NCBI GenBank assembly: GCA_035221665.1
Contig: CM069140.1
Coordinates: 5,022,001-5,086,000 of the forward strand
Length of the DNA: 64,000 nt
Direction of reading: 5' to 3'
Origin: Okamejei kenojei
Taxonomy: Eukaryota
Positions within the stretch are counted from its first letter, which is position 1; every line of letters begins with the position of its first letter. Position numbers: made by a program. Shown here one piece after another: positions 19,719-28,700 of this stretch.

Positions 19719-22700
19719 CTCCGCTCTCCCCCTCTCTCTGCCCCTCTCCTTTCTGTAAACGGATCGGTCTCCCTCATTCCCTCTCTCTTGAGACATCTAC
19801 ACTGACCAGTGTGCCACTGTCAGGGGTATATCTGTACACTCTTTCATGGGATATCTACAGTCTGATACCATTATACCAGCCAAGCTCATCACCAAACTCG
19901 AGGGAGTCAGTACTCACCTCTGCAACTGCATCATTGACTTCAATTCAGTTCAGTTTAGTTTATTCTCATGTGCACCAAGGCACTGTGAAAAGCTTTTGTT
20001 GTGTGTTAATCTGTCAGCAGAAGGACAATGCATGATTACAATTAAGCCATTTCAGGGCCTGTCCCACTTGGGCGACTGCCTGCGAATATCATACTCGTAG
20101 CTGGTCGCCGAAACACCGGTGACTGGACCCCCCTACAACAATGTCTACGACAAGCTTCAACAACCTACCACCTAGTCGACGTCAAGCTGAGGCAAGCTAC
20201 CGACCACCGGCGACCCAATCGTCGCGACTTGGGACGTGCACCTACGACAACCTACGATGACTCATACAACAATCTACGACCACAAAGGGCACGACAATGT
20301 CACGACTGTCGGAGACAACTGAAGACAGTCCATGTCATTTTGGCCTCCAAAACAATGGAATCATCCAGTTATAAAAGGGGATGTATTGTTTCCAACATCT
20401 GAGGGCATTGCTCTCACAAGAAGAAGCCCTGCTGCTTGCAGCAGCCCTCATGCTTAAAGATCAGCAAGACAGAAGGACAAAAAGAATGGGGAAGAGGAAG
20501 CCCAAGAAGAGGTGTGTGTGGTTGAAGCCCTTGTCCCTGTAGAGACCCAGGTTGGGCCAGTATGACAACCTGATGATTGAGCTCCAGCAAGAAGATGAGG
20601 CTGCCTTCAGAAACTTCACCAGGCTTCCCCCTGAGCTGTTTCAGGAGCCGAAGACACTGGGTGGGCCCTCTTCTGGAGAAAAAGGAGACCCACGGAGGAG
20701 TCACTGTCGTAGCCTGGTGTAGCTAGTCGCGTCAACTATTGCCGATAGTCGCCAGCTATCGTAGCATATTGCCGGTATGGTCGTAGGTAGTCGTTGGTAT
20801 GGTCATACATTGTCGTAGATTGTCGCCGATATAGGCGTAGATGGACTTCACTCATAGCATCACGACTGGATGTTGTAGCTTGACTTCTCTGCACTACCCA
20901 CCTCACTGGGGACCCTCGCACTATCTTTGATCGGAATTTACTGGTTTTATCTTGCACTGAACTTTATTCATGTTATTCCCTTCATCATGTTTCTGCTCAC
21001 TGTATTGTCCATCTGTTGTCTGGTGAACTCGCAACTAAAGGTGGTCACTGTACCTCGTGACAATAAACTCAACTCAAACTGACTGGTGTCACTCAGCCCT
21101 CTCATTGATGGGGATATCTGCACTAACTGGTGTCTCTCAGTCCCTCTCTCACCAGGATATCTGTACACTGACCGGTCTCTCAGTCTCCCGTTCAGGGGGA
21201 TATCTGTACACTCACCAGTCTCTCAGTCCTCTCTCTCAGGGGGATATCTGTACACTCACCAGTCTCTCAGTCCTCTCTGTCAGGGGGATATCTGTACACT
21301 GACCAGTCTCTCAGTCCCTCCCTCACCAGGATATCTGTACACTGATTGGTCTCTCTCAGTCCTCTCTCTCAGGGGGGATATCTGTACACTGACCGGTGAA
21401 CCTGAGCCCCTCTCTCCCAAGGGGATATCTACATTGACAGGTGTCCCTCTCTCTCAGGCGGATATCTGTACACCGACTTTTAACTCGGCCCCTCACTGGG
21501 GTATCGCTTCTCGGCCTTTTGGCTAAGATCAAGTGTAGTATCTGTTCTTTTTGTGAAAGAGACTATCTGTTCTTATCAGAACAGTTCTGGCGGTCCCTTG
21601 GGGACAAGGGCCGTGGATTGCGGAGCAAAATCGTTGAGGAGTTGGTCGGCTGCAGGCTTAGAGGTGGATCCATGCTGGTTGGGAAACCAACCTAACACCT
21701 TATTCAGCCACAATGTCAGTAGGAGCAGGAGTGCAGGGTATTCGGAATACCCTGCGAATAAGTGTCAAGGACCTCAGCAAGGGGACCCCCTTCTCACGAG
21801 ACCTGTTCGTGAAGAAGGTCTTGCTAGAGGCCTGCAAATTTGAGGCCAAGGACATCTACTGCCTCCAGGATTTTCCGGGTAACGGATATTTTGACGTTAC
21901 CTTCAAGTATCCAACGGGTTGGCAGAAGGTGATGGACAAGGATGGAGAAATCGTCCACCCCCCCTCGGTTTTCGCGATTGGAGGAAACCGAGGATACTTG
22001 AGCTATGTTGGGCAACCCAGGCTGTGCAGGAAATGCAACAAGCCTGGGCATGTGATGGCCCAATGCACTGCAGTTGTCTGCAAAAACTGCAAGATGGAGG
22101 GCCATGAGACAAAGGACTGTCAGGCCAGCAAGAACTGCAACCTGTGCGGGGAGGCAGGCCACCTTTACAGGGCTTGCCCTAAAAGAACCTGCACCTACGC
22201 ACAGGCAACAAGAGGAGCTGCTGCCAGCACCCCAAAGGGGAGTGAGGCACCCCCCACCACTGCAAAGACCCCAGCAGAAAGAGGGAACACGGATGAGGAC
22301 AGCCCGACCACCTTGAGGCCCCAAGTGCCAGAAGGAGACGCCCAGCATCCTGCCCAGGACGGAGAGTCGATGGAGGAGGGGGAACAGCAGGAGAAGTGGA
22401 CAATGGTGAAGTATAAGAAGAGGGGTTAGCCCAAAGAGCCGAGGCCGGAAAGGAGTGGTAAGTCCAAACGAAAATCACCAAAAAGGTGTATTTCTCTTAC
22501 AGAAGGCAGCAAGGATGAGGCGACCGGGAAGTCCCAACGAGGGAGGCAGAGGAAGAAAACGGGGGAGGAAAAGGAGACCGAGAGCAGAGAAGTGGCCGAG
22601 GGGCTCCAGCCCCAGGACATCGGGAGCAGCGCAGTGGTTGAGGGGCTCCAGCCCCTGGAGACAGGAATCATCACAACGGCAAGTGGACCCCAGCTCCAGG

Positions 22701-25700: not shown

Positions 25701-28700
25701 TCCGGGACCAACACCTTTGACCACATGTCCATCGGGCAGTGGTCAGCACAGAATGTCCTGCAGGCACTGCAGGGAATGGACTCTATGGACCCGGTGGCAT
25801 GGTTCCCTGAGCAGACTGCCCAGCTCGTCTGGCAAAATGCCTCATCGCCAGAACTCACCAACAAGCACCAAGACCTGGCTTGGCTGGCGGTGAGGGGAGC
25901 CCTCCCAGTCAGATCCTTCCTGCACCGTCGGAACCTCACTACCAGCGCACGCTGCCCTCGGGACGGCTGCTATGGCGAGGAGACGGTTGCCCACCTCTTT
26001 ACAGAATGTGGGTTTGCTAAAAGAGTCTGGAGAAAAATGCAAGGTTCCCTGGTTACGCTTTATCCCGAACAGCTCCGTCACAGAGGACTCTGTGATTTAC
26101 GGACTGTTCCCAGGGACACATTCAGAGACTGACATCGAGTGCTGCTGGAGGGTCATCAACTCGGTAAAAGACGCCCTTTGGTCTGCCCGAGCATTGTTCA
26201 CCACCCAGCAGAGCGAGATGTCCGTCAGGGAATGTTTGCCGACTGGCCCGCTGCAGACTGCAGGAGTACGTGCTGAGGGACGCACTGAAGCTCGGTGCAG
26301 CCAACGCCAAGGCTCGGTGGGGGAGGGCCACAGTCTAAGGCCCTTCCGCTGCTGGACATGGGGGGCACGGTATGGTGGAGACGCCCCTCAATATAAGGGA
26401 AGGTATCCCACGCCACTGTGGCATGAGTGGGGGACTGATTTGTGGAAATTTGGGGGAAAGAAATGTCTAAACTGTATTGATCTATTGTACAGCCTCCGAA
26501 AATGTCGGATGGATTTTCCGCAAGGTTAATGTATTGTATATATTTATCATTCGAATAAAGTATATTTTGAAATAAAATTTTTTTTAAAAAAAGACCGGTC
26601 TCTCTCAGGGGGGATATCTGTACACTGACCGGTCTCTCTCAGTCCTCTCTCTCAGGGGGATATCTGTACACTGACCGGTGAACCTGAGCCCCTCTCTCCC
26701 AAGGGGATATCTACATTGACAGGTGTCCCTCTCTCTCAGGGGCATATCTGTACACCGACTTTTAACTCAGACCCTCACTGGGGTATCTGAGTGACCTCTT
26801 GCTCCACAAAGTGTTCAGCATTGTAATGAGTGGATGGAGCAGAGTGTGATCAATCTTTAATCCGGACCTCATCATTGCCCCTCCACCCGCCGCCTGTTGT
26901 GGAGACAAACATCTTTTGGGGAATTGAACTGGGTGCTGGGGGCAGGGGCAGGGACAGGGACAGGAAGCCGCGCCTCTGGTTTCAGTGGGTGGGAACCTGT
27001 TCAAGCCGCGGCTCCCCCTCTCTCTCACAGCTCACTTGCCTATTTAAACAGCGCTGACTGCGGCTCCGGACAAAGCCACCCCTTCCTGGAGTGTCCAAGT
27101 GTGTGTCAGTGCTCAGAGTGATGGGGGTCGTTGCTTATCTCTGTCTCCTTCTGTCCTGTCTGCCAGGTGGGTGTCGTCCCCACTCGGGGCCGGGCTGCTT
27201 CTCGGACACTCTTTCACCCTCTGCCTCTTCAACTGTTTATTCAACTTTGTTTATCTTTTATTGGCAGGCGTTCGATGCGCGGTCGCGCTGAATCAGACCC
27301 CGACCCCGGAGAGTCCCACAAACTGACCTGTGCAACCAGCGGGCTCAGCCTCAGCAGTACAGCGTGCACTGGGTGAAGCAGGTCCCCGGGAAAGGGCTGG
27401 AGTGGGTGGGGGTAGTGTGGTATAACGGTGACAACAATTACACGCCTGCCGATTCGAGGTTTCCAAGGACAGCAGCAACGTCTATCTCCAAATGAACGGC
27501 CTGAGTCTGAGCTATCACTGTGCGTAACTTTGACTACTGGGGTGCAGGAACCTCGCACAGTGACGGTGACCAGGTAATGGCCCTGTCTCACGGTGCGAGT
27601 CATCCCACGAGTGACCCCAAGTGAAAGAAAAAAAACAGACTCGTGGTTATGTACGAGATTTCAAGTTTATGATCAAGTGTTGAACCGAGTTCCCACGGGT
27701 ATGTCATTGCTGCGATGTTCCAAGTTCCTCTCCTGAGTTACCAAGTTCCTCTCCCGTTACTCTTGAGCCAATCGTGAATGAAGGTAAGTGTGTGAGGGTG
27801 TGAGAAGTCCATGCCGGGTGCCGGCCGCAGCCGCTGTTCTTTCACATCAGTTGCACATCAGATTGTTGGGAGACGGACCTCAGGGGTCGCCTCCTGAGCT
27901 GCTTTGGTGCCCAGGCGTAAGTTGAGGTGGAGGGTGGTTGGGGGTGGGGGGTGACAGACAAGGCTCTTGGGTGCTGGGATCATTCTCTGCGGGATGGTTA
28001 GCGCGGGAGACATGTGTAGGAGAGGTGCGCTGTCTGCAGGCAGACACTTTGGTAGTGATTGCCCACCAGCCTCAAAAGCCGCTGTGTTTCCCTGTCCCTA
28101 TGATAGCAGGGTGCAATCAAGCAGCACAATACCCCTCCCCCTCTACGCCAACACAAAGGGCAACGATCCCAAGGCTTTAGGGGCAGAAACAGCGGACAGG
28201 CGACAATCACCCGCCATAACGCGAGAGAGATCATGCGCTATTGTAGGTCTTCTTTGCACGTCGGTGTTTCTGTATTTCTCCATCTCATTGTTGGCCCTGA
28301 CTGTCACCAACCCCACCCCCACCTCTCTGCTTCCCGGCCATGTGTGTGACCCCTTCCCTCCCCTCTCCAGCTCCCTGTCCATTGCACCGGGCGCGGGGGC
28401 TTCGCACCGTCTTCATGTTGGCGACGATCCCAAGGCTTTGGACGGGAAGGCAGACGCAACAAGCTGGAGTAACAACGCGGGCCAGGTAACATAGAAACAT
28501 AGAAACATAGAAATTAGGTGCAGGAGTAGGCCATTCAGCCCTTCGAGCCTGCACCGCCATTCAATATGATCATGGCTGATCATCCAACTCAGTATCCCGT
28601 ACCTGCCTTCTCTCCATACCCTCTGATCCCCTTAGCCACAAGGGCCACATCCAACTCACTCTTAAATGAACTGGCCTCAACTACCCTCTGTGGCAGAGAG

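What the first reader, a model, noticed from the sequence alone, without database searches (positions are those of the whole stretch)
21329..26787. U2-headed Keno LINE retrotransposed off-target beside the VH promoter, with a ~177-bp flanking duplication
Seen: the element starts exactly at U2 nt +1 (21503) and carries U2 nt 1-47. Upstream is minisatellite rather than a snRNA promoter, and the 3' half of U2 is absent after the A-tail. Flank 21329-21505 recurs at 26612-26787, and the 5' junction shares ATC between flank (GGGGTATC) and U2 (ATCGC). Established: Keno-type Tx1 elements insert specifically into U2 genes, and LINE TSDs are usually tens of bp or less. Inference: the template was a read-through transcript from a U2 promoter (U2-Keno chimera), copied to its very 5' end and integrated outside U2. 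This would be a fossil showing that the element borrows the host snRNA promoter. The ~7 differences between the duplicates (some at CpG) allow either an aged TSD or a pre-existing duplication.
Basis: partly seen in the sequence, partly recalled or inferred. Interest (0 to 1): 0.7.

Follow-up and report, generated by a model that had tools for sequence, protein, structure and literature searches.

The report
U2-headed LINE with long flanking duplication
A decayed jumping gene of the Tx1/Keno type starts with the first 47 bases of U2 spliceosomal RNA and sits, between two copies of a 177-base segment, in a minisatellite upstream of an antibody heavy-chain gene; it is a real and tidy relic, but U2-headed relatives of Keno are already in print.

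Summary
Rfam finds one U2 match in the window, starting at 21503. U2 nt 1-47 is intact and followed by a full-length, frameshifted APE/RT LINE that ends in a short A-tail at 26592. Flanks 21329-21505 and 26612-26787 are 170 of 177 identical, against 72-83% for other long register pairs of the same 44-bp minisatellite.

Three corrections:
- The head is composite: U2 1-47, a 15-nt spacer, then U2 38-52.
- The second U2 piece begins at the published Keno/Utopia junction, nt 39.
- Nineteen poorly matching bases separate the A-tail from the right repeat.

The copy lies outside U2, and a long target-site duplication is the better reading of the flanks (about 0.7). The head probably came from a master copy in a U2 gene read from U2 +1 (about 0.5).

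No other copy, empty site or Keno reference sequence could be reached, so Keno membership and family behaviour remain untested. I class it as a new member of a known kind, of moderate interest.

The parts
21132..21477 (.). 44-bp minisatellite array (also reads as period 131 and 174); target DNA of the insertion
   Evidence: TRF period 44, 8.0 copies, 77% matches; period 174, 2.0 copies, 80%
21329..21505 (+). Left copy of the 177-bp flanking repeat. Its last 3 nt (ATC) are shared with U2 nt 1-3. It may extend back to 21301 if a 10-nt indel is allowed.
   Evidence: 170 of 177 columns identical to 26612-26787
21503..21549 (+). U2 snRNA nt 1-47, at the very 5' end of the element
   Evidence: Rfam RF00004, 67.8 bits, model positions 1-47 aligned without gaps
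21550..21564 (+). 15-nt spacer of unknown origin between the two U2 pieces
   Evidence: Read. As a 16-mer that includes the next base, it has no other match in the window at up to 2 mismatches, and one 3-mismatch match at 43444 that is within chance expectation.
21565..21579 (+). Second U2 piece, nt 38-52. It starts at the published Keno/Utopia 3' junction (nt 39; A38 is ambiguous) and overlaps the first piece by 9-10 nt.
   Evidence: Exact repeat of 21540-21549 continued by ATCAG, as in the Rfam U2 consensus. Junction position from PMC4640811 section 6 and a PMC6136364 passage.
21580..21713 (+). Remainder of the 5' UTR. It forms a 7-bp hairpin with the second U2 piece (21568-21585).
   Evidence: Sequence. 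Fold of 21503-21620: -39.8 kcal/mol, z -2.66.
21714..22429 (+). ORF1 with a ZCCHC3-type RNA-binding domain and CCHC zinc knuckles. It ends at TAG 22427-22429, and the same frame stays open to 22855.
   Evidence: Pfam RBD_ZCCHC3_1st E 4.5e-16, zf-CCHC 8.1e-08, zf-CCHC_2 8.1e-05; ORF list
22923..26338 (+). ORF2 (APE endonuclease about 22923-23604, RT about 24474-25123, zf-RVT 25815-26030), broken by 15 frameshifts. The end coordinate is approximate.
   Evidence: Pfam Exo_endo_phos 1e-07, RVT_1 1.9e-28, zf-RVT 1.3e-12. Frameshift-aware alignment to P0010, P0009 and P0014: 15 frameshifts and 0 in-frame stops with each, about 46% identity over 1075-1115 codons.
26339..26592 (+). 3' UTR with AATAAA at 26554-26559 and 26571-26576, a T8 run at 26578-26585 and an A7 tail at 26586-26592
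   Evidence: Sequence
26593..26611 (+). 19 minisatellite-like bases between the A-tail and the high-identity repeat. Either a diverged start of the duplication or filler.
   Evidence: 15 of 29 columns match left 21301-21328, with a 10-nt gap
26612..26787 (+). Right copy of the flanking repeat. It is followed by unique sequence that leads to the Ig leader ATG at 27121.
   Evidence: The sequence downstream (26788-27120) has no other copy in the window.

Best explanation
This is one full-length, now dead copy of a Tx1-clade LINE, Keno-like in that it is tied to U2.

Its RNA template began at U2 snRNA nt +1 and carried a 77-nt leader: U2 1-47, a 15-nt spacer, then U2 38-52. The RNA was copied to its very 5' end by target-primed reverse transcription (inferred) and integrated outside U2, in a 44-bp minisatellite. 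The tail lies 529 bp, and the repeat end 334 bp, upstream of the leader ATG of an Ig heavy-chain V(D)J exon.

The second-strand break fell about 177-195 bp from the first nick. That produced an unusually long target-site duplication, joined at the 5' side through a 3-nt ATC microhomology (inferred).

The leader most likely comes from a master copy sitting in a U2 gene at the canonical Keno site and transcribed from U2 +1 (inferred). The second U2 piece starts at the canonical junction and overlaps the first by 9-10 nt, as a small on-target insertion scar upstream of the master would. With no U2 homology at the new site, the leader was kept whole. Having no promoter of its own upstream, the copy was dead on arrival and decayed.
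For: Shown directly:
- U2 +1 start and nt 1-47, and the exact U2 38-52 piece.
- LINE domains: ORF1 RBD plus CCHC knuckles, APE, RT, zf-RVT.
- Nearest named relatives include 'transposon TX1 uncharacterized 149 kDa protein [Danio rerio]' at 51% identity. Amphibian, lancelet and cnidarian proteins reach 48-59% over the RT (3365 proteins with E<=1e-10 among 4856 candidates, best 120 listed).
- No U2 3' part anywhere in the window.
- Flanks 170 of 177 identical, against 72-83% for other long pairs.

Published:
- U2 sequence downstream of Utopia starts at nt 39 and is identical to that of Keno (PMC4640811 section 6).
- The Keno 3' target is given as TCTGTTCTTATCAGTTTAAT (PMC6136364 passage).
- TSDs of about 10 bp are seen for elements mobilised by Keno relatives (PMC4494074 section 11).
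- No internal snRNA promoter is known, and the PSE and DSE lie about 60 and 220 bp upstream (PMC4494074 introduction passage).
- L1 TSDs over 100 bp occur, in under 10% of recovered HeLa events (PMC5223499 passages).

Inference for a TSD:
- The left copy ends exactly at the element's 5' end.
- The [19 nt + 177 bp] unit starts exactly at its tail. A LINE landing in a pre-existing tandem pair would give this picture at about 1 of roughly 350 positions, or about 1 in 20 if the 19-nt slack is allowed.
- Indel density is similar in ORF2 (15 per 3381 bp) and in the repeat pair (1 per 2x177 bp). That fits equal age.

No self-cleaving ribozyme or any other Rfam family was found at E<=1 in 21300-27000. 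A co-transcript would therefore keep its head.
Against: - Only one copy could be examined, so nothing shows that on-target copies exist in this genome or share this leader.
- Keno relatives that are not in U2 carry U2 or U1 heads, explained in print by template switching with recurrent additions and partial duplications (PMC4494074 sections 11, 16, 17, 18). The composite head fits that too.
- The 15-nt spacer does not resemble this element's own 3' end or anything else in the window, so the 'truncated on-target insertion' reading has no direct support.
- Recalled, from no call: snRNA-type promoters are coupled to 3'-box processing and are poor at making long polyadenylated RNA, yet the copy ends after AATAAA in an A7 tail.
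- For the TSD: 19 bases between tail and repeat match the left side poorly, and the array already has a natural period of about 174 bp, as unequal exchange would produce.
- 15 frameshifts with 0 in-frame stops is a somewhat odd decay pattern. Part of the damage may predate insertion.
Confidence: 0.5

Rival explanations
1. Template switching. The LINE RNA had no U2 leader. At the end of reverse transcription the Tx1-type RT jumped onto mature U2 snRNA at an internal, single-stranded position (about nt 47-52) and ran to its 5' end. One or two further jumps, or a partial duplication, gave the composite head. The head then says nothing about the element's promoter.
For: - PMC4494074 (sections 11, 16, 17, 18) reports Tx1-Mar families that cluster with Keno and have U1 or U2 heads; Tx1-11_Crp has a U2 head.
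- The same paper reports recurrent 5' additions of U1/U2 to SINEU, truncation points within 22 nt of each other, short homology at junctions, and partial duplications within heads.
- Here the head starts at U2 +1, as a run-off on U2 snRNA would, and it is composite.
Against: - It needs about three jumps to give U2 1-47, a 15-nt spacer and U2 38-52.
- It does not explain why the inner piece starts at the canonical Keno junction (nt 38/39) or why the overlap equals a typical 9-10 nt TSD. I estimate this as a few percent by chance, but the estimate is post hoc.
- The LINE part is full length with 5' UTR and ORF1. From recall, classical snRNA-LINE chimeras carry LINE 3' fragments.
Confidence: 0.3
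2. The flanking repeat is not a target-site duplication. The minisatellite already held two adjacent higher-order units of about 177-195 bp from unequal exchange. The LINE landed between them with little or no TSD and a small target deletion.
For: - TRF reads the left array with period 174 as well, 2.0 copies at 80%.
- 19 bases next to the tail do not match the left side well.
- With the LINE removed, the joined sequence looks like a unit lacking about 8 nt (read).
- TSDs of this size are rare for LINEs (PMC5223499 passages).
Against: - The insertion would have to fall at the one position, within about 19 nt, that makes both repeat copies abut the element ends.
- The pair is 96% identical, while the neighbouring higher-order pair is about 80%.
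- Indel densities suggest the LINE is at least as old as the duplication. The error bars on this are wide.
Confidence: 0.25
3. The copy belongs to a Tx1 lineage that has fixed a U2-derived leader and no longer targets U2, like Tx1-11_Crp. It may even prefer this minisatellite, so the insertion is on-target for its family rather than an accident.
For: - Tx1-clade families target satellites, microsatellites and transposons, and U2-headed families outside U2 exist (PMC4494074 passages and section 16).
- Every unit of the array carries TATCTGT, which is U2 nt 37-43 and spans the Keno nick site. It occurs at 7 sites in the left array and 3 in the right flank, of 17 on the + strand of the window.
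Against: - Similarity of the units to a 26-nt U2 target does not exceed background: best 13 of 26, a score reached at 294 other window positions.
- Neither junction falls at the TA|TC position of a unit.
- Other blocks of the minisatellite in the window (19363-19841) hold no copy of the element.
Confidence: 0.12
4. Assembly artefact. One or both junctions are chimeric joins in a repeat-rich region.
For: The flanks are a minisatellite, which assemblers handle poorly. No read data were available.
Against: - The structure is internally coherent: U2 +1 start, complete 5' UTR to tail, and repeats abutting both ends.
- The five Ig C-domain exons nearby are open reading frames, so the assembly is not generally error-ridden.
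Confidence: 0.03

Closest known systems
Keno (Tx1-clade, APE-type LINE specific for U2 snRNA genes; Kojima and Fujiwara 2004, known here only through PMC4640811, PMC4494074 and PMC6136364)
   Same: - APE + RT LINE with Tx1-like relatives.
- U2 5' part directly upstream of the element.
- An internal U2 piece starting at the published junction (nt 39).
   Different: - The 3' flank is a minisatellite, not U2 nt 39 onward.
- The copy lies upstream of an Ig gene.
- Membership by RT phylogeny could not be tested.
Tx1-Mar families with snRNA heads (Tx1-11_Crp with a U2 head; Tx1-2_Crp, Tx1-2B_Crp and Tx1-4_AMi with U1 heads) and SINEU of crocodilians (PMC4494074)
   Same: - A LINE with Tx1-type relatives, as Tx1-Mar is a Tx1 group clustering with Keno, though its own RT placement was not tested.
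- An snRNA-derived sequence at its 5' terminus while not inserted in an snRNA gene.
- Composite or partly duplicated heads.
   Different: - Those families prefer Mariner-N4_AMi and are multi-copy families with consensus heads. Here there is one copy in a minisatellite in a different host.
- The length of the Tx1-11_Crp head is in a figure that I could not see.
R2 and R1: LINEs co-transcribed with their rRNA target (as cited in PMC4494074 section 18)
   Same: Proposed dependence on the target gene's promoter, with upstream target sequence on the RNA helping precise 5' joining on target.
   Different: - R2 removes the upstream rRNA with a ribozyme; none was found here.
- R2 uses a restriction-like endonuclease.
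- The promoter here would be a Pol II snRNA promoter.
snRNA-LINE chimeric retrocopies such as U6-L1, made by template switching (Buzdin 2002 and Garcia-Perez 2007, as cited in PMC4494074 section 18)
   Same: snRNA sequence at the 5' end, with the whole chimera flanked by one duplication.
   Different: - Here the LINE part is full length.
- The U2 part stops at, and restarts from, the Keno target site.
L1 insertions with TSDs over 100 bp (PMC5223499 passages)
   Same: A direct repeat of more than 100 bp bracketing a single LINE insertion.
   Different: Those are L1 events in cultured human cells, frequent only in NER-deficient lines. Nothing is known about this for Tx1.

Membership tests
Tx1-clade non-LTR retrotransposon | ORF2 with an N-terminal APE endonuclease, an RT and a C-terminal zinc-binding domain | tested here: met
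   Pfam Exo_endo_phos E 1e-07, RVT_1 1.9e-28, zf-RVT 1.3e-12. 6 of 11 ORF fragments had a family hit at E<=0.01.
Tx1-clade non-LTR retrotransposon | ORF1 with an RNA-binding domain and CCHC zinc knuckles | tested here: met
   RBD_ZCCHC3_1st 4.5e-16, zf-CCHC 8.1e-08, zf-CCHC_2 8.1e-05
Tx1-clade non-LTR retrotransposon | RT groups with Tx1 references in a phylogeny (RTclass1 / Repbase) | tested here: inconclusive
   Only names of relatives were available. One listed hit is named 'transposon TX1 uncharacterized 149 kDa protein [Danio rerio]' (51% identity). The best hits are unnamed, at up to 64%. No tree with labelled references was made.
Keno (U2-specific Tx1 lineage) | 3' end abuts U2 nt 39 (TCTGTTCTTATCAG...) | tested here: not met
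   The 3' flank of this copy is minisatellite, and there is no second U2 match in the window. A canonical-looking junction (spacer | U2 39-52) exists only inside the leader.
Keno (U2-specific Tx1 lineage) | 5' end preceded by the 5' part of U2 | tested here: met
   U2 nt 1-47 at 21503-21549, here as part of the transposed unit and not of a U2 gene
Keno (U2-specific Tx1 lineage) | RT clusters with the named Keno families | not testable with these tools
   No Repbase sequences. Kojima and Fujiwara 2004 is not held.
U2-headed Tx1 family (Tx1-11_Crp type) | U2-derived 5' terminus on copies that are not in U2 genes | tested here: met
U2-headed Tx1 family (Tx1-11_Crp type) | The head is shared by many copies, as a family consensus | not testable with these tools
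   There is a single copy in the window, and no eukaryotic genome collection was open.
snRNA-LINE chimeric retrocopy by template switch | snRNA at the 5' end, one TSD around the whole chimera, and a LINE part that is usually a 3' fragment | tested here: inconclusive
   The first two features are met. The LINE part is full length with 5' UTR and ORF1, which is atypical.

The most novel reading that the evidence does not exclude
The composite leader is a DNA-level footprint of the Keno target site: the break and restart at U2 nt 38/39, with a 9-10-nt overlap. That would make this copy direct genomic evidence that Keno-type LINEs are expressed as chimeric transcripts from the host U2 promoter. 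It would also suggest that the U2 heads on Keno-related LINEs and SINEU arose by co-transcription from U2-resident masters and not by template switching.
Probability: 0.4. Interest if true: 0.55.

Novelty: new member of a known kind. Interest (0 to 1): 0.4.

Why it matters
How target-specific LINEs without a known promoter are transcribed is settled for R2 in rDNA. It is not settled for the elements that target snRNA genes.

An off-target copy that keeps the upstream target sequence from +1 is the kind of relic that can show which RNA was the template. It also bears on the open question of where the U1/U2 heads of SINEU and Tx1-Mar came from.

By itself one copy cannot decide between co-transcription and template switching. 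It does define a precise 77-nt junction to look for in U2 arrays of the same genome.

The flanking repeat of about 177 bp would, if confirmed as a TSD, be an unusually long one for a Tx1-type element.

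Tried and rejected
- **Spacer as an inverted copy of U2 34-45 (snap-back).** The local hairpin of -5.8 kcal/mol is matched or beaten by 13.5% of 5000 shuffled spacers and by 17.8% of 5000 random window 15-mers. Dropped.
- **Minisatellite as a degenerate Keno target.** Only the 7-mer TATCTGT is shared. 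The best ungapped match to U2 27-52 is 13 of 26, which is background level. GTATCTGT has 5 matches in the window, none in the flanks. Kept only as a weak lead.
- **Spacer related to the element's own 3' end or anything else in the window.** There is no match at up to 2 mismatches.
- **Paralogous empty site in the window.** None found. The element is single-copy. The sequence right of the repeat has no second copy. The sequence left of the array (20893-21077) is a short dispersed repeat whose other copies (56328-56532, 61032-61133, 55171-55356) do not continue into a minisatellite.
- **Ribozyme or other structured RNA at the 5' junction.** Nothing but U2 at E<=1.
- **On-target insertion into a local U2 pseudogene.** Rejected, because no U2 3' part follows the tail.
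- **5' or 3' transduction as the source of the repeat.** Rejected on geometry: there is no second A-tail, and the repeat is present on both sides.
- **Pfam on four V-exon frame pieces.** 0 of 4 hit. A PDB sequence search of one piece then showed VH framework 2.

**Could not be done**
- Kojima and Fujiwara 2004 is not held.
- Two paper searches failed on term format and were re-sent corrected.
Kojima's supplementary figures on Tx1-Mar flanks and heads may bear on the comparison.
- No labelled RT tree was built.

Full report
**What is there**

The window has no N. At gathering thresholds Rfam finds one RNA family match in all 64 kb: U2 snRNA at 21503-21599, 67.8 bits, E 3.3e-11. A rescan of 21300-27000 at E<=1 gives the same match and nothing else.

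Model positions 1-47 align without gaps to 21503-21549, so the match begins at U2 +1. From there to 26592 runs a single-copy element with the anatomy of an APE-type LINE:
- a 211-nt 5' UTR;
- ORF1 (ATG 21714, TAG 22427-22429) with a ZCCHC3-type RNA-binding domain and CCHC knuckles;
- ORF2 (ATG 22923) with Exo_endo_phos, RVT_1 and zf-RVT domains;
- a 3' UTR with two AATAAA signals, a T8 run and an A7 tail. In one search, 6 of 11 ORF fragments had a Pfam family at E<=0.01.

A frameshift-aware alignment to three intact relatives (P0010, P0009, P0014) gives the same result each time. There are 15 frameshifts and no in-frame stop over 22901-26281, at about 46% identity. The copy is dead and fairly old.

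**Relatives**

The RT fragment finds 3365 proteins at E<=1e-10 among 4856 candidates, of which the best 120 were listed.
- The closest, at up to 64% identity, are unnamed.
- Named relatives include Pleurodeles (59%), Ranitomeya (58%), Branchiostoma (56%) and Paramuricea (48%).
- One is named 'transposon TX1 uncharacterized 149 kDa protein' from Danio (51%), and there is a Takifugu reverse transcriptase (50%).

This fits the Tx1 clade but is not a phylogeny. No labelled Keno reference could be reached.

**The head is composite**

Directly after it come 15 bases of unknown origin (21550-21564) and then an exact U2 nt 38-52 (21565-21579). This is the only match to that 15-mer in the window at up to 2 mismatches.

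The published junction matters here.
- U2 sequence downstream of Utopia insertions starts at nt 39 and is identical to that of Keno (PMC4640811, passages and section 6).
- The Keno 3' target is quoted as TCTGTTCTTATCAGTTTAAT (PMC6136364, passages).

So the second piece begins at the canonical junction (A38 is ambiguous), and the two pieces overlap by 9-10 nt. That is the size of the TSDs reported for elements moved by Keno relatives (PMC4494074 section 11). This is what a small on-target event in a U2 gene, upstream of a full-length resident copy joined at nt 52|53, would leave.

The idea has no direct support, because the spacer resembles nothing else in the window. A possible snap-back hairpin between spacer and U2 is not better than chance.

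**The flanks**

Upstream of the head is a 44-bp minisatellite. The stretch 21329-21505 recurs at 26612-26787 with 170 of 177 identical columns. The differences are six substitutions in three close pairs and one G indel. Other register pairs of the array are 72-83% identical, with best short pairs at 91% over 81 bp and 87.5% over 56 bp.

The left copy ends exactly at the element's first bases, sharing ATC with U2. The right copy ends where the homology between the two flanks stops; unique sequence leading to the Ig leader follows.

Between the A-tail (end 26592) and the right copy lie 19 minisatellite-like bases. They match the left side poorly, at 15 of 29 columns with a 10-nt gap.

Taken as [19 nt + 177 bp], the repeat abuts both ends of the element. 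That is what a target-site duplication predicts. A LINE landing in a pre-existing tandem pair would give this picture only at essentially one position.

Indel density is similar in ORF2 (15 per 3381 bp) and in the repeat pair (1 per 354 bp). This fits equal age, with wide error.

Against a TSD: the 19-base mismatch, the array's natural period of about 174 bp, and the rarity of such TSDs. For L1, events over 100 bp were under 10% of those recovered in HeLa cells (PMC5223499 passages).

I put a TSD at about 0.7. No paralogous empty site exists in the window.

**How the head got there**

Two accounts compete.

On target, the U2 part of the RNA helps precise joining. Off target it is simply carried along. 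This is the logic known for R2 and raised for this clade in PMC4494074 section 18. No internal snRNA promoter is known (PMC4494074 introduction passage), so the new copy is dead on arrival.
- *(B) Template switching onto U2 snRNA.* This is not hypothetical for this clade. Kojima 2015 reports Tx1-Mar families that cluster with Keno, lie outside U2 and carry U1 or U2 heads; Tx1-11_Crp has a U2 head. The paper also reports recurrent head additions to SINEU, truncation points within 22 nt, junction microhomology and partial duplications inside heads (PMC4494074; I read the abstract, passages and sections 10, 11, 12, 16, 17 and 18).

Account (B) fits a composite head. It does not explain the restart at nt 38/39 or the TSD-sized overlap. 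Account (A) explains both. It must, however, assume an unseen on-target scar, and it must assume that a U2 promoter can make a 5-kb tailed RNA, which from recall is not what snRNA promoters do well.

I weigh (A) at about 0.5 and (B) at about 0.3. The remaining 0.2 goes to other accounts. The main one is a family with a fixed head and a new target, which I rate at about 0.12; that reading overlaps with either origin of the head.

**Context**

The leader ATG of an Ig heavy-chain gene lies at 27121, which is 334 bp downstream of the right repeat end and 529 bp downstream of the A-tail. Its V exon reads straight into a J-like FDYWGAGT segment with a GT donor, so it is germline-joined, and it is frameshifted.

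Five C1-set exons follow on the same strand between 40694 and 53917. In that ORFs of at least 90 aa were scanned out of 162; the 25 starting at 21400-26700 were left out; 16 had a family hit. The Atlas look-up of one C exon gives chordate Ig C-domain clusters.

Exons were searched one by one; the joined protein was not made or searched.

**Novelty**

Searches of the held library found no report of a U2-headed Keno-type copy outside U2 in this kind of host. The kind itself, a Keno-related LINE with a U2 head outside U2, is in print.

I class this as a new member of a known kind, with an unusually informative head and an unusually long probable TSD.

**What stayed unchecked**
- Other copies in the genome, since no eukaryotic collection was open.
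- Read support for the junctions.
- The Repbase phylogeny.
- The 2004 Keno paper.
- All supplementary files.

Noticed in passing
window 27267-27575 (+): The Ig V exon runs straight into a J-like segment (FDYWGAGT...) with a GT donor at 27576, so it is a germline-joined V(D)J. The reading frame is broken several times and framework regions look shortened, so it is probably a pseudogene. Framework 2 matches VH chains in the PDB (best E 1.4e-17).
   Followed up: partly
window 40694-41050, 44933-45277, 45766-46107, 48917-49255, 53534-53917 (+): Five open C1-set immunoglobulin constant-domain exons lie on the same strand as the V exon, spread over 13 kb with LINE fragments between them. This is a many-domain heavy-chain constant region. 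The isotype was not determined.
   Followed up: partly
window 11948-14812 (both strands), 28986-31953 (-), 37188-37865 (-), 46185-46877 (-), 49736-50173 (+), 62793-63998 (-): Further reverse-transcriptase fragments of other LINEs, plus one APE fragment. None shares nucleotide similarity with the U2-headed element, and none has a U2 match.
   Followed up: no
window 19674-19717: An uninterrupted run of 44 C lies about 1.4 kb upstream of the minisatellite. Blocks related to the minisatellite also occur at 19363-19841.
   Followed up: no
window 20893-21077, with copies at 56328-56532, 61032-61133 and 55171-55356 (-): A short dispersed repeat (62-76% identical copies, SINE-like size) abuts the left edge of the minisatellite array.
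   Followed up: no
window 21568-21585: The second U2 piece and the first bases of the LINE 5' UTR form a perfect 7-bp hairpin (CTGTTCT / AGAACAG, 4-nt loop). The whole 118-nt leader folds at -39.8 kcal/mol, z -2.66.
   Followed up: partly
window 22901-26281: ORF2 has 15 frameshifts but no in-frame stop codon along the aligned path. This is a lopsided decay pattern, possibly because some indels predate insertion or because indels are favoured in this sequence.
   Followed up: partly
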